A stretch of 64,000 nt of DNA from Naegleria gruberi (Eukaryota): the NCBI GenBank assembly GCA_000004985.1, contig GG738862.1, one strand, 5' to 3'. The translations under genes were made by a program, and so were the position numbers. Shown piece by piece: positions 60 to 63,372 of the stretch; position 1 is the stretch's first letter; every line of letters starts with the position of its first letter. The notes beneath the pieces were generated by a model that saw nothing but the letters and a program-made list of their open reading frames with translations, was not told the origin of the DNA and searched no databases.

Positions 60-1919
60 ATGTATCAAAGGAAAGCATTGATAACTAACCAATCAATCCT
101 TAGTGTCAGTTTGCTGCTAGTTTGTTTACTGGCATTAAGTATTTTGCATGTTCCATCATCTGTTTTGTGTGCTTCCTCAAGTAGCTCATCAAGTAATGGA
201 ACTGTGAGAGAATGGCTCAATGACTTGAATGATCAAGCTGCTAATCTACAATCCTCTGCTTCAAGATTGCAAAAAGCTATTGCAATTTTGAGTATGGCCA
301 ACAATACAGCATCCATCATCAGCATGAGAAATGCCCAGCTAAAGAAGATTAATTCTGCACTTGACATGATTAATCAAGAAATTTCAATCTTTAAAATCAC
401 CTGCAGTAATAATGATGGTCCTGATTGTAGCATTCCAGTATGTGTATCAAAGTGTTTGAACTGCTCTGGACCTGGAAAGTGTGGTGTTTGTTCTGGTAAT
501 TTTGATGGAAGTGATTGCTCTGCATGTAAATCTGGATGGAGTAATTACAATAGCAATTGTACTGTTCCAATTTGTGATTCTAAATGTATTATTTGTCAAT
601 CACCTGGAAACTGTACCAATTGCTCTGGTAATTATGATGGTTCTGTATGTTCATCATGCAAATCAGGATGGAATGGTTCTAATTGTTCAACACCTATTTG
701 TGATTCTAAATGTGTAACTTGTCTCTCACCAGGAAACTGTACTAATTGCTCTGGTAATTGGACTGGATCTGCCTGTTCTATTCCTGTATGTGATTCCAAA
801 TGTTTGAATTGTTCAGCACCTAGTGTTTGTTCTCAATGTTCTGGTAATTGGGTTGGTTTAACTTGTTCAGTATGTCAGACAGGATGGACAGGAGCAACTT
901 GTTCAACACCAGTATGTGATTCCAAATGTACAACCTGTGCATCTCCTGGTGTTTGCTCAGTTTGTTCTGGTAATTGGCAAGGATCTACATGTTCCACATG
1001 TAAGACAGGATGGACAGGAGCAACTTGTTCAACACCAATTTGTGATTCCAAATGTACAACCTGTGCATCTCCTGGTCAGTGTTCTGTGTGTTCTGCTGGT
1101 TGGACAGGAGCAACTTGTTCAACACCAGTTTGTGATTCTAAATGTACAACATGTGCATCTCCTGGTCAGTGTTCTGTGTGTTCTTCTGGTTGGACAGGAG
1201 CAACTTGTTCAACACCAGTTTGTGATTCCAAATGTACAACATGTACATCTCCTGGTGTTTGCTCAGTTTGTTCTGGTAACTGGGATGGTCCTTCATGTTC
1301 TGTGTGTAAAACTAGTTGGACAGGTTCATCTTGCAATCTCGCTCTTGGTGATTTTGCAAACTCACCATTATTCTCCGCTAGTTATGGAGCTAGGTTGATC
1401 ACATCTATTTTGAGTGGCGTTATGAAGAAAACACCAACCAGACTCTATAGAGCCATGGCAACTTATGGTATGGGAATTGGTTATGGCTATCATCCTTACG
1501 CTTTCCATAATGCCTGCAATGGTTATTCTTCAACAGTTACAATTGTGAAAACATCAGCAGGGGCTGTATTTGGTGCCTATCTAAGCATTCCATGGGAAGA
1601 TTATAATGCTGGGGATACAACAACTCGTAAGACATTTTCAGATCCTAATGCATTTCTATTTAGTATGGTAACATCGAGCGGTGTGGAGAGATTTGTGAAA
1701 TTGGGTTATTCTGGAGCTGTTGGACAAACTGTTACATACAATTTTATAACACATCCATTGTTTGGAGCGTCGGATATTTATTTGGGACAAGGGATGAGCT
1801 ATCAGCCAGCACCTGATGCTTATTCGAAACCAGCAACTTTTCAACCTTTGGAACCTAACTGGAGTTATGGAACTACATATTCATTCACTGTTTCTGATTA
1901 TGAAGTGTATAGTATTTAA
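60..1919 (+). CDS. Secreted cysteine-rich repeat protein with a C-terminal TLDc domain (619 aa, single exon)
   Basis: ATG at 60 with a signal peptide, MYQRKALITNQSILSVSLLLVCLLALSILHVPSSVLCA. A short coiled-coil-like segment follows, then nine or more tandem ~30-38 aa modules, CDSKCTTCASPGQCSVCSxGWTGATCSTP, with CxxC and EGF/furin-like spacing. The C-terminal ~190 aa match the TLDc signature: YRAMATYGMGIGYGYHPYAFHNACNGYSSTVTIVKTSAGAVFGAYLSIPW and later DPNAFLFS. The ORF is uninterrupted for 1860 nt. Confidence 0.8.
   Translation: MYQRKALITNQSILSVSLLLVCLLALSILHVPSSVLCASSSSSSSNGTVREWLNDLNDQAANLQSSASRLQKAIAILSMANNTASIISMRNAQLKKINSALDMINQEISIFKITCSNNDGPDCSIPVCVSKCLNCSGPGKCGVCSGNFDGSDCSACKSGWSNYNSNCTVPICDSKCIICQSPGNCTNCSGNYDGSVCSSCKSGWNGSNCSTPICDSKCVTCLSPGNCTNCSGNWTGSACSIPVCDSKCLNCSAPSVCSQCSGNWVGLTCSVCQTGWTGATCSTPVCDSKCTTCASPGVCSVCSGNWQGSTCSTCKTGWTGATCSTPICDSKCTTCASPGQCSVCSAGWTGATCSTPVCDSKCTTCASPGQCSVCSSGWTGATCSTPVCDSKCTTCTSPGVCSVCSGNWDGPSCSVCKTSWTGSSCNLALGDFANSPLFSASYGARLITSILSGVMKKTPTRLYRAMATYGMGIGYGYHPYAFHNACNGYSSTVTIVKTSAGAVFGAYLSIPWEDYNAGDTTTRKTFSDPNAFLFSMVTSSGVERFVKLGYSGAVGQTVTYNFITHPLFGASDIYLGQGMSYQPAPDAYSKPATFQPLEPNWSYGTTYSFTVSDYEVYSI
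907..1290 (+). repeat. In-frame tandem DNA repeats (90-nt and 114-nt units, >90% identical) encoding the Cys-rich modules of the gene at 60-1919
   Basis: The string caacttgttcaacacc recurs at 1021, 1111 and 1201 with near-identical 90-nt units. A longer 114-nt variant unit starts near 907. Confidence 0.85.
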
Positions 1920-2098: not shown

Positions 2099-2830
2099 TT
2101 ATTGAGACAAACATTGATTAATGGATGGACATTGAGATGGAAGAATAAAATTAGCATTATCCACCTTTTCAATCATGTCATAAAAAACTTGTTCTTGAGA
2201 AGCATTCGAAACTACAACATACGAGCTCAATAACCAACACTTATTGGAGGTCATTTGTGGTTCTCTGAATGTCCACATGGTTCCAGTGGATCCGTTTTGA
2301 GAAGAAACAACTTTCAATGCATCATAATTACCAATCTTTCCTTTTGTAATCTTTCCATTGGATGCTGGAATGCAAATTGAATTCCATTGATTGAAATCTG
2401 AAACCTTTCTACAAACACATTGACCATCTCTTAAACCATACAAAACAGTTACTGTAGAACTAATCTTGATATCCCAATTGGTGTAATTGAAAACAACTCC
2501 ATCAACTGTATAACTGATATCTTGTCTCATCTTTCCAGTATTGTAATCTGCTGAAACTTTAAAGTTTCCATCGTAATGTTGTAAAGTGTTATTGGACAAG
2601 ACAGCAATTTGATTGAAACTTCCTTTCAAAGAAAAGACATTTGGCAAACAACAAATATTTGAATCAGATGGAGCTCTCTTATTGAAAGCAGAACTTTCGA
2701 ATAATTGATTGAAAACAAACATTGGAGAAGCAGCGTGGCACATTGAAGCCATGGTTGCAACAACAAGTAAGAATGAAAGAATTGTTAGTTTCAACATTTT
2801 TTTTGGTATGAGAAATTGTAAGATATTCAA
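2099..2830 (-). CDS. Secreted hypothetical protein (~230-243 aa)
   Basis: ORF with an N-terminal hydrophobic signal, MLKLTILSFLLVVATMASMCHA. The true start may be the internal Met at about 2797. There are several Cys and N-glycosylation sequons, no recognisable catalytic motif, and a 732-nt open frame in an AT-rich background. Confidence 0.55.
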   Translation of the reverse strand: MNILQFLIPKKMLKLTILSFLLVVATMASMCHAASPMFVFNQLFESSAFNKRAPSDSNICCLPNVFSLKGSFNQIAVLSNNTLQHYDGNFKVSADYNTGKMRQDISYTVDGVVFNYTNWDIKISSTVTVLYGLRDGQCVCRKVSDFNQWNSICIPASNGKITKGKIGNYDALKVVSSQNGSTGTMWTFREPQMTSNKCWLLSSYVVVSNASQEQVFYDMIEKVDNANFILPSQCPSINQCLSQ

Positions 2831-3969
2831 ATTATTTTACTAATTTATACATTTTCAAATTGGAAACTCAATCGAAACAATTTAATTGATCAATCTTGAA
2901 ACTTTAGTTGAAAGAATAAAAAGACTACAGCACCACAGGTTCCCAAGTTGTCTCCAACCTCAGTACTGATGTGGCTCGACGATGCTTAACTTCTCAAATC
3001 GGACGGGATGAGGTGCATTCATCGTGATATGGCCGTAGCCATTCTTTATAATAATCTTTCATCATTCAATTCCTTAATCTTTTACTCTTCAATTAATAAT
3101 TTTACTAAAATTGCAAAAGGAAAAAGAGTACGTGACAAATTGTTGCCAAAAGGTTTGTTGTTCTTTCTGGATAGGATTTGAAATTGAAAGAACAAGAAGA
3201 ACATCACTGCTAGATAACATCACGGAGATGTATTTATTGGTGTCTTGATGAAGATTGATGAAGTAGATGATGAATAATTATTGTTGGGAAGACATGTGAA
3301 AATTCAACTTTCCAATCTTTGGAAAATTGCTGAAAAACATTGCAAATCTACCTTTCCTGTTGTGATTTAATAACAAATCTTGTTCGTCCTGTTGAAATTG
3401 AACAAGTTTTCCAGTGCTGTTTTTGGCTGTGAAAATTAACGGTCAAACTTTCATCTTCTCCAACTCTACATCTGCTTGAAGGAAAATTTTGAAACTTTCT
3501 GGTATGATGCTAATTAACATTTAGAACAAGCCTAGGATGTTCTTGTTGCTTTTGATGATGTTCTTCATGATGAAAATATTAAAATTATTAATTTGATGAA
3601 AATATTCTTAAAGTAATACAATCGCACCCATTTGATTGTTATATCATTGCTGTATACTAATGGATGATGTGGGTTTTACTTCTCCAACTCGACAAAATGT
3701 TCCATCAATTTAATCGGTGCCTTTTAAAATTTGTAATTCATGTTGAAATACAACAAAATTAATTCCCACATGTTCCATATTATCCTATCCTCTTGTTCTG
3801 AAAATATTTTCCGCAGTGTCGAAGAATTGCCTTTGAAAATCAGCAATGATGAAAACTGTAGCAGAGTGATGAAATTTTTTCCTCTTTTTTTTTGCTTGCA
3901 CTTTCTTTCATCAAACTTCATTTAATGCAAAAACTCGGCAAAGATTTTCATTTACATATGTAACGGTTT

Positions 3970-5071: not shown

Positions 5072-8000
5072 TTATTTAAAAACAATTTTCTGATTGTTAA
5101 TTAAAACATTGTAAAGATGAGAAAGTTCAAAGAGACACGACTTGTCACGAATGTTAATAATTGTCCTCAAATATTTCACTGCATCCCTATTAAATATTCT
5201 ACACTTGTACAAGAGTGGAAGTCCTTCAAGAGATTCTCTTGAAATAAGTCCAAATTCATCAATAATTGATTGTTGGAATAATTCCTCTTCCTTAGAGTTT
5301 GGTGCATAGGGTTTTGGAGCTATTCCCAAGAATTTACAGAACTCATCTTGTTCTAATTGATTGGCAAAATAGAGAGATCCAGCAAATATGTGAATGTCAG
5401 TCAACAAGTTCAGTAATACCTTGTCAGCAATTTCAAAGTTATTATTTGGTACACTCCATGCTGGTTCATCAATCATGATACGAGAGGTAGGACTTGTTCG
5501 TGAGCAGAACATGAGTATACGAGTTGGTGAAAATTTGTCCAACTTTTGAATATAATGATTAGCCTCTTCTGGACTCAAAATGATAATTGTTTGTGAGTAT
5601 TCACTGTAGGCCAGCCAAGTGACGGGTTTGAAGAATGGACTATTCTTGGAAGCATTCGAAACAGTTTTGAGGTAATTGTCAGTGGCATAAATGTTGTGAT
5701 TCCAATTGATTGGAGAGGCCAATAGAGTTTCTTCCAAAGATTCAGATAATGGACGGGCTTTAAGTGGTTGAATGGAGACATCATATTCCTCTTGGAGAAT
5801 GCCCTTCTTCATGAATAACTCCAAGGTATCGTCAATTACAGTAGCTGCAGGATCACATTTTTGAGGTCTCTCTACAATTCTTTGCTCTTCCAATTCATTT
5901 TCCAATTCTCTTTCCTGTTCCTCGTTGAGTATTTGTGAAAAGATAGTTTTAGAGTGAGCTCTCTTATTAATATTTGCTCTAATTAATTCCAAAGAAGGAG
6001 AAATATCTATGGAAAAGAGTTTTGAAATGTGAAGGGCTCTCTTTTCAAAGATACTGAGAAGGTATTGTTCATATCTTTCCTGTCCATAAAAATCACTAAT
6101 TTTGAATAATTCATTTTCAGTGCACTGCTCTGCATATTCATCCATTTTAAGCTTGGCATCATATTCGGTTTTGGCAATTTTTTTAGAGTAGAAGAGCAAT
6201 CCACTAGTTGACCATTGTAGATAGTGATCATTTTCCATTTGTACTCTATTGTGAATGGACCATTTCAATATTCTTTCTTGGATTGTAAGCTGTTGTGAAA
6301 AATTGTCATTAATAAAACGATCAACTTCTTGACTTGCCCAGAAGGCAACAGAGTGTCCTTTTCCTAATAATCTCATTCTCATACAGGCTTGGCATAGTCT
6401 CTCAAATGTAAGACCATTACCCAGTGTTACGGCTGCTTTCATTCCAGTAGGGAATTTGAGATCTGTACCTCTTGTGTGAATATCATCAAGATAAATCAAA
6501 CATCTTTCCAATTTGTTCTTATAGGGAGATATTTCGAATGGAATTATCAAACCATTTCTATCCAAAACAACCAATTGATCTTGGGTGTTGAAAAATACAG
6601 CTGCATCTGCAACTTGTTCAGTCACAGAGTTTAACCAGTATTTGCAAAGATTCATATTACTCATTTCAAGCATGAGCGCTCCCACATCAATTAATACTCG
6701 TTGGTTATTAGCATTCAATTCAGATATAAAGTTAGTAATCTCTGCTTGTTTGACAACATGATATTCTTCATTCTCTTTAGAGAGGAGAATTTTCAATAAT
6801 TCTCCAGTAGTTCCCCTAAGGGAAGGAAGCTCATTTTCCTTAATGGTGATTGGCAAAAGGAATGCCTTCGTTCCAGAGAATCCACAAGTAGGGAATTTAC
6901 TTTCCTTACAAAGATTCCAAGCTGATGCTGAAATCTTTCTATCAAACTGTTTACATTCTCTTGAGAATACAGCTCGATTGAGGAAAAAGTCAATCACTGC
7001 CATGTTATTTCTTAAAGCTGGGTATAAAACTTGTGTCTTTTGAATAAAGTCTTCCAAGTTAATGCTCTTGTAATGTTTGATTGATTCGGGAATATTTTTC
7101 ATTTCATAGACCCATTTCTCATATTCCACATCGGGAGATTCTATTCTTTGAAGGAATTGGAAAACCACATCTAATTGTTCATTAGTCAATCCAGAATAAT
7201 AATAACTCAATAATGTTAAAAGAATTGCAATATCTGGATGCCCAAACTCGGCTCTATCAGAAGGGCAATCCTTAGCTCTGTAAGGAACAGCCACCAATCT
7301 CTTGATATTAGGATTGACTCCATAATTAACTCTCCATCTCTTATTGAGCGAGTGATACAATAATCCAAAAGCAAATATACCTCTCATTAATAAAATTTCC
7401 GATTTTAAAATATCATTTGACATGGTAGAAAGAATATCCAACTCAGTTTGTGAAATGGTTTCTGCTGTTAATATCTTCTTAATATTTTCTCGGTCGTTCA
7501 ATTTGTAAGGAATGAAAATTTCACTTGCCCTTCCTTCTAAAATATCATCTACAATTAAATCAACTAATTGATTGTAAGATGTCTTATCTAAAACTCTAAA
7601 ATAAGGGAAAGTATGAGAATCTCCTCTAGTAAAGAATTCAACATGTGAAGCGCCAAGTTTGTTGAATAAACTTTCAGCATGCTTTCTAACAATTCTCATA
7701 ATTTTTTGAGGTAATATCCATCTCAGATTTCCCATATCCAAATCTTTTTGTTCTCCCACAGTATAAATTAATTGATATCTAACATGAAGAATTTCATCAC
7801 TTTCATCGAGAATATCTCTGCAGTGTTTTTCGAAATAGTCTTGTAATCTCAAATAATCGTGAGCAATTGATTCCTTAGCAATTGCTTTTTCAATTCCTTT
7901 CAATTCAAATGACAATCTATATTCTGGAACAGTGATAAGAATGCTCCTTTCCTTTTCCATTACTTCCAATACACTTCTAATAGTCTTTAAATCTGTTGCA

Positions 8001-11000
8001 GTAATTTTCAAATCTCTGCTAAATGGTAGATAGATTACCTTTCTATTAAGAATTCCACCAAGTTTAAATGAAAGATATGTATAATTGGTCTGGAGTAATT
8101 GTTTTAGTACAGTCAATCGAGGAATTTGTGCTTCGTTAAATGCAAGGACTAACATTGGAATAATTACCGATGTTTTGCCTTCTCCCATATTGAATTGGAG
8201 AACCATGTTTGTACTTGAGGAAAGCATGTGATTTGCAACTTCATATTGTCTTGGTCTAATCATCAAATCGAGTTCAATTTCCAATAATAACCATTGGGGG
8301 AACTTTTTAGGGCTCCAATTAACATGTCCACTATTTTCAAGTTCTCTATCAAATTGTACCTTCTTATTTGGATCATTGTTCATAAGTTTCAATCTGTTGT
8401 ATCGTTGTTCCAAAGTTGTTAATACAGCAAGAGCTCCAATCAAGTCTTTACAACCACAATACTGTTCAGTATCTGATATCAAATCCTGGAATAACAGATA
8501 TGGGCATAAACGATTTGAAATTCCACATTCTGCTATTGCTGATTTTGCAGTATCGGAAAAATTAGAAAGTTTACATTCCAGAGCTTTCCAAATTTTTTCT
8601 TTCAATTCCAATATGACAGAAATATTAGGCAGTTGTGCTGAGGTTACTTGGTTTGGGTTATTGGCTGTCAAATAACTGCCCTCCAGGTCTAGAATGTACT
8701 CGTTGTAAAGAGGGTCATGAGAGTCATGTGAAAATAATTGAACATCATGCTCCAAGGTTTTGATTACATCCTTCTCACAATATGGTGATATGTCACCTTT
8801 TTCAAAAATGTATTTAGCCATTTCTGGAACATCAGCTAATCCAAAAACAAGCTTATTTCCATCTTCTTGTACCTTGGTAAAATTCTGAATATCAAATGTT
8901 TGATTTGTTTCGTTTGGCTGTAAATTCTCCATTGTAATGTTGACTATTGTTATGTCACCTTTAGCATTATTCATCATATTTTGGAGAACTGATTTAATAC
9001 CTTGTAAAAATTTTTGAACTCGTTCTCTATTGTAAAGTGTAGATAAATAGTTATTGATATGATCGACAGCTTCACTCTTATCAATAAAATTTAATCTTCC
9101 AAATTTGTTTTTCTCCATTAATTGCTCCTTATTGAATGCTATTTCAGCAAACCTTAGGCATGTTCTAATATCATTATTAAACGTTTCATGGTCATCCTCA
9201 TCATCAAATGTTAGTCTACTATTTGCCGCTTTCAATAAATTTATAACGTCATCTTCATCAAAATCAGTACATTCCAAATCATCAACACTTGAAAAAATTA
9301 AAGGTGAATGTTGATTTCTAAAAGAATTGGCAAATAAATTAATAATCATGAAACAAGCCAACATTTTCTTTTTTTCTGGGAATACATAACCGAGATAAGA
9401 TATGAAAACTTTGAAATCGGCAGGTGTTTGAGTTTTGGCTGCTTCATAGAGTGTGAGGAAATCATCTTCGAGGTCAATATTTTTCCAATCATACAGGAAG
9501 TTCTCCACTTTTTTTTCTGGATTGAACGAGGACACTGAATTGATAAGTTCAACTGCTGAAATTTTCTGAAAATTATTTTTTGAAATAGATGCCAAGTACT
9601 TGCAAGCAACATAGGATGTCATTGAAGAGATCTTGATTGTTTCAACATAATTGACATCTTTTTGAGAACTAATTCTTAAACGTACAATAGGATTGTAATA
9701 ATTAAGGTAGGCTTTGTAATACCTTCTTGCCAAGAAGAGAGGATCTTCCTCGTCACTCTTTTTAACACTACTGCCACTTTCCCCGTCTAGGAAAATTGTC
9801 TCCTCTGACTTTTTAACAATAGAGTCCACAATTAGTTTGTAAGCATCCAAAAGACATAAACTTGATAAATTTGTTTTAGGCCATGTTATCTTCTCATTGA
9901 CTTTCATTTTTGGTGGATGGAAGCTTCTGTCAGGAGAAATAGATGAAATGGCCTCTAGTAGAGAGGTTTCCAATTTTGAGAGAGGTCTCATTGGCCAACA
10001 TCTTGCAGATTTCAAAATTTTGAGAGCTGATTCATAACCTGTTAATTTTGTGAATGGATCGACTATTACAGAGCTGGTGATACCATGAAGAAGTGCCAAA
10101 AAAAGCCAGGACGATAAGCTATCATTAGCTTCTAATTGCCACATGTACTCATTAACAGAATAGGTGAAATAAGGAGTATCTATTGATTTAGTCATATCGA
10201 TACGTGTTAAATGGTGATGTTTGAATTTTTCTGTTGAAATTTCACCATTTGGTACAAGCACAATCTTTTTAGAAGAGTTTGGATTTTCGTCCTTCAGCAT
10301 TATGGCATTAGAAAGTCCAATTAATGTACCACAATAAAATGAATCGCAAACTATCATTGAAAACTCCTTTGATCGTAAATAGCTGTTGTTCACCAATTCA
10401 AAGTGAAGTCCCAAACGTGGAAGTTCCACTAACACTTCATCATTATTTGCAAATATATGAATATTATGTTTGAGTTCAATTCTTGAAATTGATTTCAATA
10501 CTTCTGTATACGTTTCTCCAAAATAATTCATGAGTACTCTTTCAGTACCAACTTCTTTCAATTTCTTTTCTGTGACATCGAGTTTGTAAGCAATGCTACT
10601 TTTAAATTTTGGAGAAAAGAAAGAAATAGGTCTGAAAAGCACACAATTAGTTGTAACATCATACCAATGACTGTAGTTTTCCACAAATTGAGCTGGAAGA
10701 TCATATTCAAAAATTTTGTGAGACAATAAAATAGATGTTTCAGAGCCATGCTTCAGAATGAATTGCATACTTTTTCTAAACTCCAGTTGACAGCCGTCAA
10801 TATCGTACGATGTCACAAAAGCATCTGGACGTGTGGCTTGTTGCACATCAAACACAAAATTACCAAACACTCTCTTATACTTTGCATCTGCTGTGATAGG
10901 ATCAGGAAGTCTTCCAATTGGATTTCCATTGACAAGGAATGTTCCTCTAACAATATTGAAGGCAATTGCTGTAAATCCCGAATCGGTAAGAAGTGCTGCC

Positions 11001-14000
11001 TTAACCCATCCATTGGCTACCTTTTCCCATTTTGCATATGGATCAGTGTATCCAGACCAATAGAACTCAGCAAATATATTCAGTGCAATAGATGGTAATC
11101 CAATATATTTTTCAATTAAACAAGCAGTTTGGTAATAGCGTCTCAATAGGAAAACTTTGAGAGTGTTTTTAGGAAATGTGAATTGTTTGCTCAACACAGT
11201 GTTGTCATGAATTCTAGAAACACATTTACACCAAATTTCTACGTTTGTGTGAATAGCTAATTGAGGTTTTAGTACTGAAGGTTCCAAATTGAATGTAAGA
11301 ACTGCACAACAATTAATGTCAATCAGATTTTGTCTAATTTTGGCTATTTCTAGAGGTGGAGAATCAGTCATTGTAACAATAAGCGTTTCAATGTCTTTGG
11401 ACCACTTCAATATCAAGTTTCTGATTTTGGTCAAAAATTCAATGTACTTGTCAATAATTGATTGAGTAATATGAATATTGATAACCCTCAGAGCAGCAAC
11501 TATTAAAACTAGTACAACTTGGTATGATTTCCAGTTTTCCTTATACTTTTCCAATATAGATTCGAGCAATTCCAAAAGTTTTGAGCAAAACATTGAATTT
11601 TGTAATGGCTCATTAACTTCTCTGTACCACACATCAGAATCGTTTGGGCAATTTTGAAGCATGGATTGAAGCAGTAGAACAGTAACATCTGGCCTCTGAA
11701 TGGAAAGTTTTTCATTGGCCAAACATCTCACTATATTGTGCCACTGTAGTCTAAATCCTGCCCGTAGTGAACCATATTCTACAAACTCGGCCAAACTTAG
11801 ATTTGGATGACAGAGTGCTTGGTTGGCTATTACTTGATTTTGAGAGTGATCGAAACCACTAATAGCCCATTCCAGATTGGCATATTCAGGTGATTCAATT
11901 TTAAAGGTAAAATTACTTTCCTTCATTGATGAATGAGTCATTGTGTATGTGTGGTCGTTACCAACTGTTGCCACTAGGTCACATCCATTTGGTTTTAAAA
12001 AGCTATCCTCTGAACTCTGTACATGCTGCCGTGAGTAGTGAGTGTCAGAAAATCCTTTCACAGTACTACCAATAGTTGAGCAAGGTGGACGTCCAGATGT
12101 GAAATTCTCAAGGTAGCCTTGTTCTCTCCAAGTGCTTGGAATTTTATCTGTTTTCTGAACTCGGCATTGAAGCTGAGCCATACAGAAGAATGCATCTCTA
12201 TAATTCATATAATAATTCGGAATTAATAATTCAAAAACAATTGCATATTGTTCCACATATCCTGAAGGTAAAAAATCTTCAAAAATTGAAACATAAGTAT
12301 TGTCCAAACTTCTTTTCAATGAGCATTTGGAGCAATATTTGGAATGCCTTGTATAGCCATGAACATTAATGAAATATTCACATTCCATATTATTGTATCT
12401 GTTATAGTTTCTTTGATAATCATTCTTTCCTCTCCTTACTTCTTCAAGCTTTTGTTTTTTTCTTTCTTCATTCTCTTTTAGAATTTGATCCAATGTTTGT
12501 CTCATTGTCTTGTCGTGTCTCACAAAAAGGACACAATAGGAGTTAGCACTGAGTTTGTTTGTCAAAAAATCACATGGGCGTTTGGTTGTCTTATCGAAAC
12601 GTGTGAAATATTGTTCCAATTCGAGAGCAAATTTCATATCACTCGGAGAATCGAGTAATAAATATTTAAATGTAGATACATCCACTCCTGTTGAATATTC
12701 TTCTAACAGTTTGGAGCATGAAATGGCTATAATGTGCATAGCTTTCAAGAAGCCAAATAATGTCAGTATGAATCTGCTCTTTCCTATTGGATCGTTTTCA
12801 TAGAATTTCGAACCTAAATTGTAATAGGCATCCATTTTCTTATATACTGTATCAGAGAATGATTTTCCCTTCTTACTTTCATCAATGATTGTGAATAGCT
12901 CGTCTCTAACCCATGATTCATACTCCATTAATTGTCTTGTTGTGTAAATGTTATCATGTTCTTCCTTAGGAAGTGATGAATTCAAAAGACTGATTTCCCT
13001 TTGTTCAAAAAGGGTTTTGTTGTCCTTAATCTTTTGCAGAGAGTTACTTAAATTTTGAGAGCAAGAATCGGTATTCTTTGGAAAATTAGTGTTAAATGTA
13101 TCATTCTTTTTGATTTCCTGAATTGTTACATCCATTCTTTTTTGGATGAATTCCTTTGTGTCTCTAGTTGTAAATAATGCTGATGACTTGGATACGTGAA
13201 GCATATCCTTTAACTTTTGATTATTCACCTCTTTGCTTAAGGTACTTTTAAGGTTTTCTAACTTGGTCGCTCTCAATGAAATTTTGATTATCATTTGCAT
13301 TAGATAATCATTACTCATATTAATATACGTTCTCGCTTTTTTGCATAAATAGCTCATAAAATCCAGCATGAAAAGTTTGTAAAGAAACTTCCCCTGAATA
13401 GGTCCATATATTTTGTTGAATTTGTAATGCAGTGATGCTTTCAGGGAAATCCAGAAAGGAGATCTTCTTGTGCCATCCTGTTTAGGCCTCACAAAACTTC
13501 TCACTTTCTTTTTAATATTATTAGCTACAATATTAGTAGGACCACCAGAGAGTAGTGAAAGCATCCATTCTGTTATTAAAATTGGAGAAGAAACTTCTCT
13601 ATCTTCCGAAACAACTGTTCCTTTCCTCTTTGTTTTTGCTGAACTCATTTCCTGACTTTCAGTCAAATAAGTTAATTGATTTAAAAATGATTGACTTTCT
13701 AATACTGGAATATTATCATCCAGTACTGAAACTGATAACTCGGGATAAGTCATGCAACAAATGTCACATTTATAAATATTTGCATTCTTTGGATGACAAG
13801 TAAATGCTGACGCAATATACTTTGGTGTACTATCACTCGAATATTCGAACATTAACAAACAATTATTTCCAGTTAAATAGAACGAAATGCAATCATTACT
13901 TTCAGTCAGGTAAGATGTAATTGTTTTTCCCTTAGGAATGTCAATATCATTCAAATTAGATTGCACTGCAGCAATATTTGCAAAATATTTATCCAACCAC

Positions 14001-14299
14001 TTTAAGGAAATACCAGATAGTAAATTATCCGAATGTTCCTTTCTAAATTCCATCAAATGGTGCAAAACTTCCATATTTTCATCCAATCCACTTTGTTTTA
14101 TCGTGTAAAACACATCGGAATACATTCTAAACATTGACTCTGATGCCGTCTTACTCCTCTGTGATGACGATAACGTACCAGAAGCCTTTGTTGGCTGATT
14201 ATTGTTTGCATTATTTGCCGTTGTGTTAGTATTTGCTGTTGTTGAAGTTTGTTGCGAAGAAGAATTCGCTGATGGAACAAAAACCATTTTTTTTTTCAA
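5072..14299 (-). CDS. Giant 3075-aa single-exon protein with a P-loop-like GEGKTS motif (possibly the DUF3638/DUF3645-type large eukaryotic protein family)
   Basis: Uninterrupted 9.2-kb ORF. It has an N/T/S-rich N-terminus and a Walker-A-like MGEGKTSVIIPMLVLAFN near aa 1870, followed by hydrophobic strand-like segments. The family assignment is from memory of the GEGKTS context only. Confidence 0.8.
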   Translation of the reverse strand: MKKKMVFVPSANSSSQQTSTTANTNTTANNANNNQPTKASGTLSSSQRSKTASESMFRMYSDVFYTIKQSGLDENMEVLHHLMEFRKEHSDNLLSGISLKWLDKYFANIAAVQSNLNDIDIPKGKTITSYLTESNDCISFYLTGNNCLLMFEYSSDSTPKYIASAFTCHPKNANIYKCDICCMTYPELSVSVLDDNIPVLESQSFLNQLTYLTESQEMSSAKTKRKGTVVSEDREVSSPILITEWMLSLLSGGPTNIVANNIKKKVRSFVRPKQDGTRRSPFWISLKASLHYKFNKIYGPIQGKFLYKLFMLDFMSYLCKKARTYINMSNDYLMQMIIKISLRATKLENLKSTLSKEVNNQKLKDMLHVSKSSALFTTRDTKEFIQKRMDVTIQEIKKNDTFNTNFPKNTDSCSQNLSNSLQKIKDNKTLFEQREISLLNSSLPKEEHDNIYTTRQLMEYESWVRDELFTIIDESKKGKSFSDTVYKKMDAYYNLGSKFYENDPIGKSRFILTLFGFLKAMHIIAISCSKLLEEYSTGVDVSTFKYLLLDSPSDMKFALELEQYFTRFDKTTKRPCDFLTNKLSANSYCVLFVRHDKTMRQTLDQILKENEERKKQKLEEVRRGKNDYQRNYNRYNNMECEYFINVHGYTRHSKYCSKCSLKRSLDNTYVSIFEDFLPSGYVEQYAIVFELLIPNYYMNYRDAFFCMAQLQCRVQKTDKIPSTWREQGYLENFTSGRPPCSTIGSTVKGFSDTHYSRQHVQSSEDSFLKPNGCDLVATVGNDHTYTMTHSSMKESNFTFKIESPEYANLEWAISGFDHSQNQVIANQALCHPNLSLAEFVEYGSLRAGFRLQWHNIVRCLANEKLSIQRPDVTVLLLQSMLQNCPNDSDVWYREVNEPLQNSMFCSKLLELLESILEKYKENWKSYQVVLVLIVAALRVINIHITQSIIDKYIEFLTKIRNLILKWSKDIETLIVTMTDSPPLEIAKIRQNLIDINCCAVLTFNLEPSVLKPQLAIHTNVEIWCKCVSRIHDNTVLSKQFTFPKNTLKVFLLRRYYQTACLIEKYIGLPSIALNIFAEFYWSGYTDPYAKWEKVANGWVKAALLTDSGFTAIAFNIVRGTFLVNGNPIGRLPDPITADAKYKRVFGNFVFDVQQATRPDAFVTSYDIDGCQLEFRKSMQFILKHGSETSILLSHKIFEYDLPAQFVENYSHWYDVTTNCVLFRPISFFSPKFKSSIAYKLDVTEKKLKEVGTERVLMNYFGETYTEVLKSISRIELKHNIHIFANNDEVLVELPRLGLHFELVNNSYLRSKEFSMIVCDSFYCGTLIGLSNAIMLKDENPNSSKKIVLVPNGEISTEKFKHHHLTRIDMTKSIDTPYFTYSVNEYMWQLEANDSLSSWLFLALLHGITSSVIVDPFTKLTGYESALKILKSARCWPMRPLSKLETSLLEAISSISPDRSFHPPKMKVNEKITWPKTNLSSLCLLDAYKLIVDSIVKKSEETIFLDGESGSSVKKSDEEDPLFLARRYYKAYLNYYNPIVRLRISSQKDVNYVETIKISSMTSYVACKYLASISKNNFQKISAVELINSVSSFNPEKKVENFLYDWKNIDLEDDFLTLYEAAKTQTPADFKVFISYLGYVFPEKKKMLACFMIINLFANSFRNQHSPLIFSSVDDLECTDFDEDDVINLLKAANSRLTFDDEDDHETFNNDIRTCLRFAEIAFNKEQLMEKNKFGRLNFIDKSEAVDHINNYLSTLYNRERVQKFLQGIKSVLQNMMNNAKGDITIVNITMENLQPNETNQTFDIQNFTKVQEDGNKLVFGLADVPEMAKYIFEKGDISPYCEKDVIKTLEHDVQLFSHDSHDPLYNEYILDLEGSYLTANNPNQVTSAQLPNISVILELKEKIWKALECKLSNFSDTAKSAIAECGISNRLCPYLLFQDLISDTEQYCGCKDLIGALAVLTTLEQRYNRLKLMNNDPNKKVQFDRELENSGHVNWSPKKFPQWLLLEIELDLMIRPRQYEVANHMLSSSTNMVLQFNMGEGKTSVIIPMLVLAFNEAQIPRLTVLKQLLQTNYTYLSFKLGGILNRKVIYLPFSRDLKITATDLKTIRSVLEVMEKERSILITVPEYRLSFELKGIEKAIAKESIAHDYLRLQDYFEKHCRDILDESDEILHVRYQLIYTVGEQKDLDMGNLRWILPQKIMRIVRKHAESLFNKLGASHVEFFTRGDSHTFPYFRVLDKTSYNQLVDLIVDDILEGRASEIFIPYKLNDRENIKKILTAETISQTELDILSTMSNDILKSEILLMRGIFAFGLLYHSLNKRWRVNYGVNPNIKRLVAVPYRAKDCPSDRAEFGHPDIAILLTLLSYYYSGLTNEQLDVVFQFLQRIESPDVEYEKWVYEMKNIPESIKHYKSINLEDFIQKTQVLYPALRNNMAVIDFFLNRAVFSRECKQFDRKISASAWNLCKESKFPTCGFSGTKAFLLPITIKENELPSLRGTTGELLKILLSKENEEYHVVKQAEITNFISELNANNQRVLIDVGALMLEMSNMNLCKYWLNSVTEQVADAAVFFNTQDQLVVLDRNGLIIPFEISPYKNKLERCLIYLDDIHTRGTDLKFPTGMKAAVTLGNGLTFERLCQACMRMRLLGKGHSVAFWASQEVDRFINDNFSQQLTIQERILKWSIHNRVQMENDHYLQWSTSGLLFYSKKIAKTEYDAKLKMDEYAEQCTENELFKISDFYGQERYEQYLLSIFEKRALHISKLFSIDISPSLELIRANINKRAHSKTIFSQILNEEQERELENELEEQRIVERPQKCDPAATVIDDTLELFMKKGILQEEYDVSIQPLKARPLSESLEETLLASPINWNHNIYATDNYLKTVSNASKNSPFFKPVTWLAYSEYSQTIIILSPEEANHYIQKLDKFSPTRILMFCSRTSPTSRIMIDEPAWSVPNNNFEIADKVLLNLLTDIHIFAGSLYFANQLEQDEFCKFLGIAPKPYAPNSKEEELFQQSIIDEFGLISRESLEGLPLLYKCRIFNRDAVKYLRTIINIRDKSCLFELSHLYNVLINNQKIVFK

Positions 14300-14467: not shown

Positions 14468-15034
14468 CTATTTCCTTAAATGTCTAATCAATTTTTGAAT
14501 TTTTGGAGCATACTTGTAAGTGGCAATTAATCTAAAAGGTTCCAACAGACGATTCACAATGTAAGCCACTGCAAAATTAGCATACTTTTCCGATTGATCG
14601 ATTTTTGTGGCATCAATGAGATTCAACTGAATTAAATATTCCATCACTGCTCTTGTTGGCAATAATCCATTCTGGAATAACAAGTACAAACAACCCAATG
14701 TTGCAAAGTATTGAGAAAAGTAAAAGATTAAACCTGTAGCTCCGTAATTCTTGATGAATTCTTTGATTTTTTCGAGGAGAGTCTTTTTGATTGGTGGATT
14801 CTCCTTAGTTTCGGTTGAGGAAGAGGTTGGGTTGATGGTTAGAGGAGTTTGTTGGAAGGATTTCTCTTGAGTTTGTTCGTGATTTTGCTTGACAATGTTT
14901 TGGTAGAAAGTTCGAGAGCAGACAATGAGCGGTTCCATGAGGAAACTGTTTACGAAAGGTTTCGAATTGGATTTGGAGAGAATAACAGTGGATCCTTTTG
15001 AGAGGACAAAAGATCTTCTTGTAGATGTAATCAT
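14468..15034 (-). CDS. DUF1279/FAM210-like small protein (188 aa)
   Basis: The segment KEFIKNYGATGLIFYFSQYFATLGCLYLLFQNGLLP matches the FAM210/DUF1279 core (KxYG..G..fY.....lG.fY). A hydrophobic helix lies in the C-terminal half. Confidence 0.55.
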   Translation of the reverse strand: MITSTRRSFVLSKGSTVILSKSNSKPFVNSFLMEPLIVCSRTFYQNIVKQNHEQTQEKSFQQTPLTINPTSSSTETKENPPIKKTLLEKIKEFIKNYGATGLIFYFSQYFATLGCLYLLFQNGLLPTRAVMEYLIQLNLIDATKIDQSEKYANFAVAYIVNRLLEPFRLIATYKYAPKIQKLIRHLRK

Positions 15035-15190: not shown

Positions 15191-18100
15191 TTACAATTCC
15201 ACAATTTCAATTTCATCACTCTTATCTTTGAGTTGAATGACTGGATAAATATCATTCAAGAGTTGAGGATCATTGCTCACTGAGAGTTTCTTGAGAAGAA
15301 TGAAAGGTTTCTTATTATTGACCGAAACCCAAATTGTTCCATTCTTATCTAGATTCATTTCAACAGTTGTTCCACTTCTTTCATTTACAACCACTTCTCT
15401 CACTCCAGATTCTGGCATTTTAATTCCCTCCTGTCCACAGAAAAATCCATCATTCAAATAATAATACCATCCACATGTTTCATGATTTGAAAAATTGTAT
15501 TTCAATTTGCTTTTTGGTGCAAAGCCAAACATGATGCTTGAACTGATAGTGGAGAGGACTTTGATTTTGTATCTGAAAGTTTTGGTTAATACAACTGTGC
15601 AATTCCATTCACTTTGTGACATGCCAATCTTTTTGGCACGTTTTGGATTGGTGAGTTGAGCTGTGAGACTCTTTGCTTCTGAATCGAATGTAATATCCAC
15701 AATGGCTTGATCAAAGTTTGATCCACAAATGTTAATATTCGAACCAGCAAAATCATGTCCATTTAAATTACATTTAGATAAATTGGCACCAAACATATTA
15801 GAGTTGGTAATGAGAGTTTGTGAGAGGTTACATTGAGAGAAATCTGCCTCTGTAAGATTACAATTGGTAAAGACAGCTCCTTGTAAATTGGCATGTTTGA
15901 ATACTGCTCTGGAAAGGTCGAGTTTTGTAAACTGAAATCCTTCCAAATTACAATCAGTAAAGTCCACTCCTGTGACACTTAATGAACTTTGCAACACATC
16001 CGTATCAAAGAAGGCAGAACAGAGTTTGGCTCCGCTGAGACTGAGTCCATCATTGAGGATTGACTTGATATTACATCCAAAAAGGATAGCCTTATTGAGC
16101 GAGCTGTTTCTCAATAGAGCTGAATCTAAATTACAATAGGTAAAGTTTGCTCCCTCAAAATTACAATTGGATAGATTAGTTTTGGAAAGGTTGCAATTGG
16201 ACAAGTTGGCCAAACTGAAATCAGAGCCAAAGAAATCTAAGGATGACAAGTCGAAACCAATCAATGAAGATCTTGACCAATTGGTGGATCTTAGACTTGT
16301 AGATTTTCTCAATAATCTTTCATTAACCATAGAACCACTAAATTGTGAGCTACTCAAATCATATCCAGTACTCGTAGATGCTACTTGTGTCAAGTCACAC
16401 AAATTAAAGTTTACATTTCTACATATTGCCTTTTCAATGTTACAACCAAATAATTTAGAGATTTTGAGTGTAACTCCATTCAAAGAGGCTCCAACGAACT
16501 TGGAATTACTCAAATCACATCCAATCATTTCACAATTACTGAGAGTGCATCCACTGAAATCACAATACTTGAAATTGCAATTGTGGAATTTGGCCTTGGA
16601 AATTTGAATTCCAGATAAATCACAATCAACAATTTCAGCATCCATAATAGTGATATTACTCAAATCCAATTGTTTGAGATCCTTCTTGGTGAGAATGAGT
16701 GGTTTCTTTTGATATTTGGAAGTACTCAATAAGAAGGTGAAATCATTTTGAGAGAGAACAGTTGAATCAGTTGTCAATTCAGCAGTTTCCTCATCAATTT
16801 CATTGACAATTTCATCCTTGAGAGATGCTTTCATCTTGTTCAATCCGAAATATTCCGCAACATGACTCAATCTTTCCTTTAAATATTCACAATCAATACT
16901 AATATTACCATATCTGAGCCAATGCAATATATATTTGAACAATGCAGGATCACAATCAATAAAGTAAGAACCATCCTCACATTTTCTCAATGGATATTCA
17001 CCATCAAACATTTTAGCCAACACTGAATTCTTTTCCAAACTCGTATCAGTAAGTGTTTGAAGAGTTGCCTTCATCTTTTTACCTCCAACGTTCAAAGTAA
17101 TTGGTTGATTAGATTTTGGAAGCTTGACACGATATTTAGCTGTCTGATCCCATTTTTTAGTTTCACTCTCCAACTTTTCTTTAAGAGTTTCAATTTTTTC
17201 CTGTAACATTTTACAATCATTTTCCAATTTGGCTTGCAAATCTGCCTTATCCGCAATTTCCTTCTCAAACTTGTCCTTCTTTGTGAGATATTCCTTTTCC
17301 CAATCCTGTTCAGTTTTAATCTTTGATTGGAGACGTGAGAGAGATCTAGATTTGGAAGGACTAAATGCTGGATTATAGGCATTCGATGCTGGACTTGGCA
17401 TTTCCTTCTCAGCATCCAAAGCAATTGCCTCTTTCACCAATGCAGCAATTGGTGAATTCTTAATCGATGCACGATAAGCAAGAGCTACTGAATTAGCAGA
17501 TGGAGTTGTCTTTCCATGTTGATAGAGAGGATTGATGAATTCAATTTCTTCCTCATCTTGATCTTGTGTTGGTTGTTCTTGTTGGAAATTGAGAGAAACT
17601 TGACTTGCTTCTTGAGCAAAGAAATTCAAGTTGACAGCACTTGCGAATGGATTTGCTTTCTTGACACGGACAACTTTGACTTTTTTGACATTTGGTGCTG
17701 ATGATGATTGTTGAAGATTTGTTGATGGATTTGATGATGATGGTGATGGTGATGAATTTTGATTATTATTATTCTTAATGATGAAAAATAATTATTATTC
17801 GAAAGTTGGTGAATGTAAATTTTACATACATTGATAAAGACACTTTGACTTCTATAAATTGTATTAGATGACAAGGCTCCCATAGAATTAAAATCCGTAA
17901 TTACATGTTGTGAATCCGCATCCAATAAAGTAGACGAAACTTGTGGAGATTCCAAAGAACAAGGAGAAACCACAGAAGGTGATTCGTCCACAAATGATGA
18001 TACTGGCGAAGGTTGTATATCCAAACTTCCACGTAATTCTTCAGCTTCATCAGGAAAATCCGAAATTTGTGGCTTTCGTGTAGATTTCGAATTCTTTGGA

Positions 18101-24044: not shown

Positions 24045-25190
24045 TTATTGAAGAGAAAAAACTTCATAATCTTCAATTTGGAAATATTGTGATCCTGTCA
24101 AGTATGATTGTGCGGTTGAACCTGGTGTCAATATTCCATCACCATAGCTGTGACCTAGATTAGCATAATTGTAATTATCTGCAATATGTAAATCATGTCC
24201 TGCTCCAAATGCTGGTCCATATTGAGGATTGTGATAAATTGAGTATTGAGAAGAGTTGTCTCCAATCTTGAAGTAATATCCATATTGTTGAGTCAATTTT
24301 GTAAATCTTTCAACTTTGTCAGCTGAAACTAAACTAAATAGAAATGCTGATTTGTCTGGAAAGAATGCTCCAGTAGTTGAGGTCCATGAAATACTTGTAT
24401 AACCTCCAAATACAGCACCTGTTTTTGCCTTGACAATTACAACGGTTGAACCTTTGTTATCACATTTCGAATGGAATGCTTGAGCTGAGAAACCATCTCT
24501 TGATGCCTTAAATATTAATTTGAGTCCATTTGGTGTTGGAATGCCATTCAATATTTCTGTTGCTAATCTTTCTGATTGTTTTTGAGATAATAGTGTTGAA
24601 TCTTTCAATCCACTTATTTTGGATTCGAGTTCTTTCTTTACTTGTTCTTCCTTATTCTTCTTTTCTTGTTCTTCTTTCAATTTCTTTTGATATTTGAGTT
24701 TCTTCTCTTGTTCTTCTTTCATCTTTGTTTCCAGTTCCTGCGAGGATTCAGATTTGAGCTGTTTGTTATCTTTGAGTTTATTCTTTTGGTTTTCTTTAGA
24801 TTTAGATTCATGTCTTTCATGTAATGGTCTTGTTTGATATAATAGTTCAAGATTTTCAATTTCAATTTCCAAAATAGATTTCAATTCATTCAATTCATTT
24901 CTTGTTGTTGATTTATCAGATGTGTAAGATTTAAACAAAGATGATTTCTTTCCACTCACTTCAAATGCATCCAATAAAATGTTAATTTCCTTCAATGCAT
25001 TTGATGTGTCTTTCAAATATTGCTTTTTATCTTTCAATACTTTGAACACATCTCTTGTTGAATATGTTGATGATGAAGAATTGTTGCTTGTTCCTTTACT
25101 AAGTAATGTTACTGTTGATGATTGTGCATGTGTAGCCATTACTAATGCACTCATCAATATTATTAAGGCAAATAAACAACAACGCAACAC
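24045..25190 (-). CDS. Secreted coiled-coil TLDc-domain protein (381 aa)
   Basis: Signal peptide MLRCCLFALIILMSALVMATHA. K/E-rich coiled coil (KEEQEKKLKYQKKLKEEQEKKNKEEQVKKELESK). TLDc core LIFKASRDGFSAQAFHSKCDNKGSTVVIVKAKTGAVFGGYTSISW ... DKSAFLFSL ... GAGHDLHI. Confidence 0.8.
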   Translation of the reverse strand: MLRCCLFALIILMSALVMATHAQSSTVTLLSKGTSNNSSSSTYSTRDVFKVLKDKKQYLKDTSNALKEINILLDAFEVSGKKSSLFKSYTSDKSTTRNELNELKSILEIEIENLELLYQTRPLHERHESKSKENQKNKLKDNKQLKSESSQELETKMKEEQEKKLKYQKKLKEEQEKKNKEEQVKKELESKISGLKDSTLLSQKQSERLATEILNGIPTPNGLKLIFKASRDGFSAQAFHSKCDNKGSTVVIVKAKTGAVFGGYTSISWTSTTGAFFPDKSAFLFSLVSADKVERFTKLTQQYGYYFKIGDNSSQYSIYHNPQYGPAFGAGHDLHIADNYNYANLGHSYGDGILTPGSTAQSYLTGSQYFQIEDYEVFSLQ

Positions 25191-63322: not shown

Positions 63323-63372
63323 NNNNNNNNNNNNNNNNNNNNNNNNNNNNNNNNNNNNNNNNNNNNNNNNNN
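63323..63372. other. Assembly gap (50 N)
   Basis: Run of n immediately after the telomere-like array. Confidence 1.

What the first reader, a model, noticed from the sequence alone, without database searches (positions are those of the whole stretch)
5072..14299. 3075-aa intron-less giant protein with a lone P-loop-like motif
A 9.2-kb uninterrupted ORF is unusual in a compact AT-rich genome. The only motif I recognise is MGEGKTSVIIPML near residue 1870. From memory this resembles the core of the poorly characterised DUF3638/DUF3645 family of ~3000-aa eukaryotic proteins, which has no assigned function. Size, conservation and unknown function make it a candidate for structural and functional characterisation.
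Basis: inference. Interest (0 to 1): 0.5.

Follow-up and report, generated by a model that had tools for sequence, protein, structure and literature searches.

The report
Giant helicase-like ATPase, family function unknown
This 9.2-kb gene is real and encodes an intact but divergent member of a large, already catalogued family of ~3,000-residue eukaryotic proteins of unknown function, and its "lone P-loop" is really a complete helicase-type (SF2) ATP motor whose nearest solved relative is the bacterial protein-export motor SecA.

Summary
The ORF is real. It lies at window 5072-14299 on the minus strand, with 3075 codons from a TTG. The likely start is the ATG at 14287, giving 3071 aa. It is open against a chance expectation of about 1e-106.

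Pfam finds DUF3638 (E 4.5e-81) and DUF3645 (E 2.3e-15), plus an N-terminal DUF6606 (E 9e-25). The protein aligns end to end with the family. The family has at least 4,155 clusters at 50% identity, typically 3,000-3,200 aa.

The P-loop is not alone. Residues ~1985-2720 carry helicase motifs Q, I, Ia, Ib, II, III, V and VI, and every family-conserved catalytic position is kept. An AlphaFold model (pLDDT 82) is a two-RecA-lobe SF2 motor. It has a ~275-aa insertion between motifs II and III, and DUF3645 is a conserved loop within that insertion. A long helix follows lobe 2.

The first ~2,000 residues are largely an alpha-helical scaffold. No fold could be assigned there.

Nothing supports the "ubiquitinyl hydrolase" name that databases give to some relatives.

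Verdict: an ordinary new member of a known but uncharacterised family. The substrate is unknown.

The parts
5072..14287 (-). Complete coding sequence, 3071 aa plus TAA stop (ATG at 14287-14285). The mechanical ORF extends 4 codons further upstream, to the TTG at 14299.
13340..14008 (-). DUF6606 (PF20255) match, aa 94-316. Conserved E228-x-R230...P235 and R274-R275-S276 motifs. Fold not determined.
   Evidence: The AF2 model is below pLDDT 50 here.
12323..12382 (-). Cys/His cluster C636...H648...C652-x-x-C655. C652 is invariant in 155 relatives. It looks like a small zinc-binding knuckle (inference only).
11201..12943 (-). aa 449-1029. The confidently modelled parts (about aa 449-640 and 839-1029) are all alpha-helical and solenoid-like. 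The stretch also holds the conserved but unassigned K744, H750, Q823-x-x-C826 positions.
10076..10513 (-). aa 1259-1404, conserved beta-rich region around 'VELPRLGLHFEL'. It is shared with the distant oomycete and bacterial DUF3638 proteins.
   Evidence: (hhalign probability 84%, E 7e-6)
6128..8335 (-). SF2 ATPase module, aa 1985-2720: RecA-like lobe 1, an insertion domain, lobe 2 and a long C-terminal helix.
7667..8326 (-). DUF3638 (PF12340) match, aa 1988-2207. This is the N-terminal part of RecA lobe 1 with motifs Q, I, Ia, Ib and II.
8171..8188 (-). Walker A / motif I, MGEGKT (aa 2034-2039).
7793..7810 (-). Walker B / motif II, LDESDE (aa 2160-2165).
6953..7774 (-). Insertion domain of about 275 aa between motifs II and III (aa ~2172-2445). 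This is the same topological position as the SecA preprotein-binding domain.
   Evidence: secondary structure of the model, alignment. SecA topology is taken from established knowledge.
7214..7300 (-). DUF3645 (PF12359) match, aa 2330-2358. Near-invariant loop AVPYRAKDCPSDRAEFGHPD inside the insertion domain.
6869..6883 (-). Motif III, GFSGT (aa 2469-2473).
6371..6478 (-). Motifs V to VI in RecA lobe 2: HTRGTDLK ... AAVTLG ... QACMRMR (aa 2604-2639).
6161..6283 (-). 41-residue helix following lobe 2 (aa ~2669-2709), reminiscent of the SecA helical scaffold helix.
5879..5923 (-). Family-conserved acidic motif EEQERELENELEEQR (aa 2789-2803).
5075..5860 (-). C-terminal conserved region, aa ~2810-3071. 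Not modelled; function unknown.

Best explanation
The ORF is an intact, probably functional gene. It encodes a divergent member (about 23-28% identity to fungal relatives) of the giant DUF6606-DUF3638-DUF3645 protein family.

Its catalytic heart is aa ~1985-2720, a complete superfamily-2 (helicase-type) ATPase. Two RecA-like lobes would bind ATP between them through motifs Q, I, II, III, V and VI. A ~275-aa domain is inserted in lobe 1 between motifs II and III. That domain carries the near-invariant DUF3645 loop. A long helix follows lobe 2. The overall layout is closest to the SecA DEAD motor.

The most likely mechanism is that of other SF2 motors. ATP binding and hydrolysis open and close the cleft between the lobes. 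This clamps, moves along or remodels a bound polymer. The insertion domain would act as the family-specific substrate or partner clamp. The ~2,000-residue, largely alpha-helical N-terminal part would act as a scaffold for recognition.

What is shown: family membership, the motif set and the SF2 fold.

What is inferred: ATPase activity, the clamp role of the insertion and the scaffold role of the N-terminus.

The substrate is not determined. On priors and on weak DEAD/ResIII sequence signals I rate nucleic acid at about 50% and polypeptide or protein complexes at about 25%. The wider family's patchy, expanded distribution hints at a role in biological conflict. That distribution includes fungal accessory genes, an expanded microsporidian family and intracellular bacteria. 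This hint is weak.
For: Pfam hits lie far above their cutoffs. The same architecture is found in 15 of 15 relatives.

The protein aligns collinearly with the family HMM.

The family is large: 4,155 clusters at E<=1e-3 and 2,167 at E<=1e-30.

All positions that are at least 90% conserved in the ATPase motifs of ~60-105 relatives aligned there are kept in the query. These are R2011, Q2014, Q2031, G2035, G2037, K2038, D2161, E2162, D2164, G2469-T2473, D2534, D2601, H2604, R2606, G2607, D2609, T2621, Q2633, R2637 and R2639.

The AF2 model of aa 1985-2720 has pLDDT 82.1 and pTM 0.70. Walker A follows strand 1 and Walker B ends a strand.

Foldseek against PDB gives 52 matches at E<=1e-3, all SF2 motors among those listed. 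The top hits are SecA: 1tf5 at E 2.4e-8, and 5eul_A with TM 0.47 over ~780 columns.

Sub-threshold Pfam DEAD and ResIII hits appear in 5 of 15 relatives each.

The N-terminal model is helical where it is confident. Its only structural matches are non-significant hits to solenoids such as importins.

Distribution hints come from three papers: a list of lineage-specific genes in A. oryzae (PMC6237848), an expanded family in microsporidia (PMC5423893), and 'SecA-like helicase-related domains' in Amoebophilus effectors (PMC3482391). A relative also sits on a contig with bacterial-type gene content.
Against: No biochemical data exist for any family member.

No sequence-level match to any solved structure was found.

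SecA leads the structural rankings only narrowly, so 'SecA-like' is a resemblance and not a demonstrated relationship.

The query departs from the family consensus at several near-invariant positions outside the ATPase. Examples are W273 to T, D518 to H, R564 to F, D775 to V and H892 to N. Non-ATPase functions may therefore be altered.

The N-terminal 2,000 aa could not be modelled well (pLDDT 55.9), so a second enzymatic domain cannot be excluded.

A related strain carries a truncating 1,282-bp deletion. This could mean the gene is dispensable.

The conflict-role idea rests only on distribution anecdotes. PADLOC gives no hit.
Confidence: 0.72

Rival explanations
1. It is a SecA-type polypeptide motor working in the eukaryotic cytosol. 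On this reading the DEAD motor, its inserted clamp domain and the scaffold helix grip and push or unfold protein chains rather than nucleic acid. Substrates might be ubiquitin-marked.
For: SecA is the best match in two independent structure comparisons. The insertion lies between motifs II and III, as the SecA preprotein-binding domain does. A long helix follows lobe 2. The only stretch hhalign pairs with E. coli SecA is motif II plus the following strand.

A distant oomycete relative (P0009) carries a UBA domain (23.2 bits, cutoff 22.4) and a weak RanBP2-type zinc finger.

No nucleic-acid-binding accessory domain was seen in any of about 20 members scanned.
Confidence: 0.2
2. It is a deubiquitinase (cysteine peptidase), as the automatic name 'ubiquitinyl hydrolase 1' on some relatives implies.
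For: UniRef names two relatives this way (P0004 and P0009).

The query has an OTU-like string, TGNNCLL, at aa ~150.

The family has near-invariant H750, Q823-x-x-C826 and H892.

Distant relatives have an N-terminal GH...PQxxGxC pattern.
Against: No peptidase family is detected in the query (Pfam E<=1) or in 15 relatives at E<=10.

The Cys of TGNNCLL is Ala, Ser or Thr in homologues.

A profile of aa 640-905 hits nothing in PDB or Pfam.

The query lacks the family's H892 (it has N) and D775 (it has V).

Neither DUF6606 nor aa 640-905 shows hhalign similarity to the Cys-containing N-terminal region of the distant relatives.
Confidence: 0.07
3. The long ORF is an assembly artefact or a decaying gene rather than a functional one.
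For: An independent contig from run ERR1078381 lacks window 11514-12795 and ends the reading frame at 516 aa. The window itself is a scaffold with an N-gap elsewhere.
Against: The open frame has a chance probability of about 1e-106. It aligns end to end with the family, and the conserved residues lie inside the stretch that the other contig lacks. All ATPase motifs are intact. There are no N bases in the ORF. The other contig is a different allele (98.3% identity), and its first 496 residues differ from the window's by only six substitutions and one single-residue gap.
Confidence: 0.04

Closest known systems
Giant fungal DUF6606-DUF3638-DUF3645 proteins, e.g. Suillus paluster EDB91DRAFT_1303212 (P0001), Cucurbitaria berberidis K460DRAFT_404218 (P0004) and Lecanora helva ACLMJK_003878 (P0005)
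   Same: Same three Pfam domains in the same order. Same length class (~3,000-3,200 aa). Collinear over the whole length. Same ATPase motifs, DUF3645 loop, acidic EEQERE motif and C-terminal region.
   Different: Only 23-28% identity in the global alignment; the best local BLASTP match is 34% identity over 37% of the query (P0001). The DUF6606 match is partial and weaker (profile 45-267, E 9e-25, against E ~1e-90 in fungi). Several family-invariant residues outside the ATPase are substituted. The neighbouring genes (EGF, NHL, B-box, GPS, TLDc) do not look fungal.
SecA, the bacterial preprotein translocase ATPase (PDB 1tf5, 2fsf, 5eul)
   Different: No significant sequence or profile similarity. 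The insertion is about twice as long, and its fold was not compared. The protein is embedded in a 3,071-aa eukaryotic protein with no signal peptide or clear membrane segment. There is no evidence of any link to a SecY-type channel.
RIG-I / MDA5 / Dicer / Hef-type and DEAD / ResIII SF2 helicases
   Different: No Pfam hit at threshold. The accessory domains differ. No RNA- or DNA-binding module was recognised.
Distant DUF3638 proteins of oomycetes and other stramenopiles and of bacteria, e.g. Thraustotheca clavata THRCLA_20266 (P0009, named 'ubiquitinyl hydrolase 1') and P0012 on a bacterial-type contig. Compare 'SecA-like helicase-related domains' of Amoebophilus effectors (PMC3482391).
   Same: They share the ATPase module (DUF3638 and, in most, DUF3645). 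They also share a region about 700 aa upstream of the P-loop.
   Different: They lack DUF6606. Their N-termini are different, with a GH...PQxxGxC pattern. Some carry extra thioredoxin-like, UBA, RanBP2 zinc-finger or EF-hand domains.

Membership tests
DUF3638 (PF12340) | Match to the Pfam model above its gathering score | tested here: met
   271.9 bits against a cutoff of 31, E 4.5e-81, profile 1-224 of 225, aa 1988-2207
DUF3645 (PF12359) | Match to the Pfam model above its gathering score, located C-terminal to DUF3638 | tested here: met
   56.1 bits against a cutoff of 25, aa 2330-2358
DUF6606 (PF20255) | Match to the Pfam model above its gathering score, at the N-terminus | tested here: met
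   87.9 bits against a cutoff of 27, aa 94-316, but covering only profile positions 45-267
Giant DUF6606-DUF3638-DUF3645 family | About 3,000 aa, collinear with relatives over the whole length | tested here: met
   hmmalign to the family HMM shows only small indels. Fifteen of 15 relatives have the same architecture. 292 positions are at least 90% conserved, and most are shared by the query.
Superfamily 2 helicase-type ATPases | Two tandem RecA-like lobes | tested here: met
Superfamily 2 helicase-type ATPases | Motifs I (GxGKT), II (DExD), III, V and VI present and conserved | tested here: met
   MGEGKT, LDESDE, GFSGT, HTRGTDLK and QACMRMR, all at family-invariant positions
Superfamily 2 helicase-type ATPases | Polymer-stimulated NTP hydrolysis | not testable with these tools
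   Needs biochemistry
SecA | Sequence match to SecA_DEAD, SecA_PP_bind or SecA_SW, or to SecA itself | tested here: not met
   No such Pfam hit at E<=1 in the query or at E<=10 in 15 relatives. hhalign against E. coli SecA gives E 0.054 over 19 columns. The profile against PDB sequences finds nothing.
SecA | Domain inserted in lobe 1 between motifs II and III, and a long scaffold helix after lobe 2 | tested here: inconclusive
   An insertion and a helix occur at the right places. SecA is the top structural hit. The fold of the insertion was not compared separately with the SecA preprotein-binding domain, and the margin over other SF2 motors is small.
SecA | Works with a SecYEG channel to export preproteins | not testable with these tools
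   Nothing in the sequence suggests it. No clear membrane segment was found.
Deubiquitinases (OTU, USP, UCH, Josephin, MINDY, ZUFSP, VTD) | A recognisable peptidase domain | tested here: not met
   No Pfam peptidase hit. No PDB sequence hit. The VTD paper does not mention this family.
Deubiquitinases (OTU, USP, UCH, Josephin, MINDY, ZUFSP, VTD) | A conserved catalytic Cys/His pair | tested here: inconclusive
   The OTU-like TGNNCLL Cys is not conserved. Q823-x-x-C826 and H750 are conserved family-wide, but no fold could be assigned to that region. H892 and D775 are lost in the query.

The most novel reading that the evidence does not exclude
DUF3638/DUF3645 giants are eukaryotic (and symbiont-borne) descendants or analogues of the SecA motor that act on polypeptides in the cytosol. 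They would be a previously unrecognised class of SF2 protein translocases or unfoldases. The DUF3645-bearing insertion would be the substrate clamp. In some lineages ubiquitin-binding modules would do the targeting.
Probability: 0.17. Interest if true: 0.8.

Novelty: new member of a known kind. Interest (0 to 1): 0.35.

Why it matters
The gene itself is one more member of a catalogued family. The family, however, is large (thousands of 50%-identity clusters), made of huge proteins, widespread in fungi and protists, and still has no known function.

This work shows that its 'DUF' core is a complete and apparently active SF2 motor with a SecA-like layout. It also shows that the 'ubiquitinyl hydrolase' label has no domain support here. 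Together these turn a vague annotation into concrete experiments: ATPase assays with nucleic-acid versus polypeptide substrates, Walker mutants, and a structure of the insertion and DUF3645 loop.

If the motor proved to act on proteins, it would be the first SecA-type machine outside protein export.

Tried and rejected
1. An OTU-type catalytic site at TGNNCLL (aa ~150) was rejected, because the Cys is Ala, Ser or Thr in homologues.

2. The VTD deubiquitinase family, which I recalled from memory, does not cover these proteins.

3. Homology between DUF6606, or aa 640-905, and the Cys-containing N-terminal region of distant relatives was tested with hhalign. Probabilities were below 1%.

4. The candidate Cys-enzyme domain (H750 / D775 / Q823 / C826) has no PDB or Pfam support. 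The AF2 model is unreliable there. It is kept only as an unexplained conserved pattern.

5. The three word-indexed homologue searches returned only 15 distinct proteins between them and no close relative beyond a fragment of the same gene from the ENA contig (P0013), probably swamped by low-complexity words. The exhaustive HMMER search was needed to see the family.

6. Sequence searches against PDB with the whole protein and with the ATPase profile found nothing. NCBIfam and PADLOC also found nothing.

7. The second AF2 job (aa 140-1200, 7 sequences) gave pLDDT 55.9. Its fold search gave only non-significant solenoid matches.

8. The afdb50 fold library was unavailable.

9. The source organism could not be named. 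The exact-protein lookup finds only an unlabelled metagenome run. The actin-like ORF is too divergent to place. A literature search on TTTGGG telomeres was uninformative.

Full report
**The observation**

The window holds one uninterrupted ORF at 5072..14299 on the minus strand, 3075 codons from a TTG. The first ATG is codon 5, in the context AAAAAAAAAATGG. An independent gene call on another assembly begins at the same methionine. I therefore take the product to be 3071 aa (window 5072-14287).

With the local base composition, a stop is expected every ~13 codons. The probability of 3075 open codons is about 7.5e-107, and the other five frames contain 151-319 stops.

**Family membership**

Pfam hmmscan finds three families, all far above their curated cutoffs:
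- DUF3638 at aa 1988-2207, E 4.5e-81
- DUF3645 at aa 2330-2358, E 2.3e-15
- DUF6606 at aa 94-316, E 9e-25

NCBIfam, PADLOC and sequence searches of the PDB find nothing.

The word-indexed protein search found only a dozen relatives. The best was a Suillus protein with 34% identity over 37% of the query.

An exhaustive HMMER search with a profile of aa 140-1200 found 4,155 clusters at 50% identity with E<=1e-3, and 2,167 with E<=1e-30. Full-length members are typically ~3,000-3,200 aa.

The query aligns to a family HMM from end to end with only small indels. Fifteen of 15 full-length relatives show exactly the same three Pfam domains and no other.

The literature held here still describes the domain's mechanism as undefined (PMC12615304).

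**The P-loop is not alone**

I aligned the region around the P-loop with both close and very distant relatives (fungi; oomycetes and other stramenopiles; bacteria). The alignment shows the full SF2 motif set:
- an R..Q element 20 residues upstream of the P-loop
- Q..MGxGK[ST] (motif I)
- a Ia-like VVPRPLL.Q (weaker in the query)
- a Ib-like LPEHLLSF
- DExD (motif II; LDESDE in the query)
- GFSGT (motif III)
- D..HTRGxD (motif V)
- Q..MRxR (motif VI)

Across 155 family representatives (60-105 of them aligned at each ATPase-motif position), every motif position that is at least 90% conserved is retained in the query.

AlphaFold2 on aa 1985-2720 with a 13-sequence alignment gave a confident model (mean pLDDT 82.1, pTM 0.70). 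It has the expected strand/P-loop/helix and strand/DExD arrangements and two alpha/beta lobes. A ~275-residue, mostly helical insertion lies between motifs II and III. A 41-residue helix follows lobe 2. DUF3645 is a near-invariant loop (AVPYRAKxxPSxxxEFGHPD) inside that insertion.

**Structural neighbours**

Foldseek against the PDB gives 52 matches at E<=1e-3, and all of those listed are SF2 motors. The top hits are SecA structures (1tf5 at E 2.4e-8; 6itc_A; 5eul_A with TM 0.47; SecA2 4uaq). They are followed by MDA5/RIG-I, DinG/XPD and INO80.

In SecA the preprotein-binding domain is likewise inserted between motifs II and III, and a long scaffold helix follows the second lobe. This is established knowledge of SecA architecture.

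Sequence does not confirm a specific relationship:
- hhalign of the family profile against E. coli SecA pairs only motif II and the following strand (E 0.054).
- No SecA Pfam model is hit, even at E<=10.
- Five of 15 relatives give weak DEAD hits and five give weak ResIII hits.

I conclude that the module is an SF2 motor with a SecA-like layout. It is not a member of the SecA family.

**The rest of the protein**

A second AlphaFold job on aa 140-1200, with only 7 sequences available, was poor (pLDDT 55.9). The DUF6606 part is below 50. The confident parts (aa ~449-640 and 839-1029) are helical. The fold search gave only non-significant matches to solenoids such as importins and Ufd2.

Family-wide conservation outside the ATPase is striking but unassigned:
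- a Cys/His cluster around the invariant C652
- K744, H750, D775, Q823-x-x-C826 and H892
- an LPDPLTGRTGTEEA-like motif at ~1401-1417
- an acidic EEQERExExE motif after the motor

A profile of aa 640-905 matches nothing in the PDB or Pfam.

The query itself has V at D775 and N at H892, and it is substituted at several other near-invariant positions. It is a divergent member.

There is no clear transmembrane segment or signal peptide (by inspection).

**The 'ubiquitinyl hydrolase' label**

Some relatives carry this automatic name. I found no support for it here:
- There is no peptidase domain.
- The OTU-like TGNNCLL string is not conserved.
- The VTD deubiquitinase paper does not concern this family.

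Distant relatives (oomycete and other stramenopile, and bacterial) share the motor and a region about 700 aa upstream of it (hhalign probability 84%, E 7e-6). Their N-termini are different, with a GH...PQxxGxC pattern. That pattern shows no detectable similarity to DUF6606 or to aa 640-905.

One of these relatives has a UBA domain just above threshold, a thioredoxin-like domain and a weak RanBP2 zinc finger. Another sits on a contig with bacterial-type genes. This fits an older remark about 'SecA-like helicase-related domains' in Amoebophilus effectors (PMC3482391).

A DUF3638/DUF3645 gene appears in a list of lineage-specific genes of an A. oryzae strain. A DUF3638 family is among the expanded families of microsporidia. 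These are weak hints of a role in biological conflict.

**Integrity of the gene**

A contig from ENA ERZ929261 (run ERR1078381) is 98.3% identical to window 17022-12796. It then jumps to 11513-11304. This is a 1,282-bp deletion with 1 nt of microhomology, and it truncates that copy at 516 aa.

Its first 496 residues differ from the window's at six positions plus one single-residue gap. It is therefore another allele or strain.

The stretch missing there encodes family-invariant residues in the window. The window's version therefore looks like the intact gene. Whether the deletion is a real allele, an amplification chimera or an assembly error cannot be decided here.

**Verdict**

What is there is an ordinary though divergent new member of a known, uncharacterised family.

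The useful addition is that the family's core is a complete, apparently active SF2 ATPase with a SecA-like layout, set in a very large helical scaffold. The substrate is unknown. I rate nucleic acid at about 50% and polypeptide at about 25%.

The most novel reading not excluded is a cytosolic SecA-type protein motor, with a probability of about 0.17.

Noticed in passing
window 62935-63373: About 65 tandem copies of GGGTTT (TTTGGG), with the G-rich strand running 5'->3' on the + strand. They are followed directly by a 50-N scaffold gap and then unrelated AT-rich sequence. This looks like a telomere-type repeat at a contig end that was scaffolded onto another contig.
   Followed up: partly
window 11514-12795, versus locus L001 (ENA ERZ929261 contig k127_463786): A 98.3%-identical contig from a metagenome run lacks this 1,282-bp stretch of the giant gene. 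The junction has 1 nt of microhomology, and the deletion truncates that copy to 516 aa (P0013). It could be an allele, a chimera or a misassembly; this is unresolved.
   Followed up: partly
window 60-1919 (+), 24045-25190 (-), 28200-29420 (+): Three separate ORFs with TLDc domains lie within 30 kb. The first also has EGF-like Cys-rich repeats, encoded by 126- and 90-bp tandem DNA repeats at 488-1256.
   Followed up: no
window 37346-39187, 44493-47477, 51157-53247, 53369-55090 (all +): A cluster of NHL-repeat proteins. One has a B-box zinc finger, one has a GPS motif, and one has teneurin-like EGF repeats. This looks like a local paralogue expansion of surface or receptor-like proteins.
   Followed up: no
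window 30310-31113 (+): An actin-family ORF that matches only actin profile positions 109-409 and is strongly divergent from conventional actins. The N-terminal third must lie in another exon or be missing.
   Followed up: partly
window 39617-40612 / 40590-41600 (-) and 21059-22627 / 22560-23234 (-): Two pairs of adjacent same-strand ORFs that overlap by a few tens of bases in different frames. This suggests short introns or frameshifts, so the genome is not strictly intron-free.
   Followed up: no
window 15191-17629 (-) and 14468-15034 (-): The immediate upstream neighbours are a BTB/POZ plus pentapeptide-repeat protein (KCTD9-like architecture) and a FAM210-domain protein. The FAM210 protein is identical in the ENA and Logan contigs, which is how the source run was found.
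   Followed up: no
proteins P0009-P0012 and P0014-P0015 (distant DUF3638 relatives), N-terminal regions: They share a pattern P-G-G-W...G-H-[AS]-[IM] followed ~90-130 aa later by T-P-Q-x-x-G-x-C, reminiscent of a papain-like Gln/Cys site. P0009 has N and G at the His and Cys positions. No Pfam family matches this region in the three proteins scanned (P0009, P0012, P0015).
   Followed up: partly
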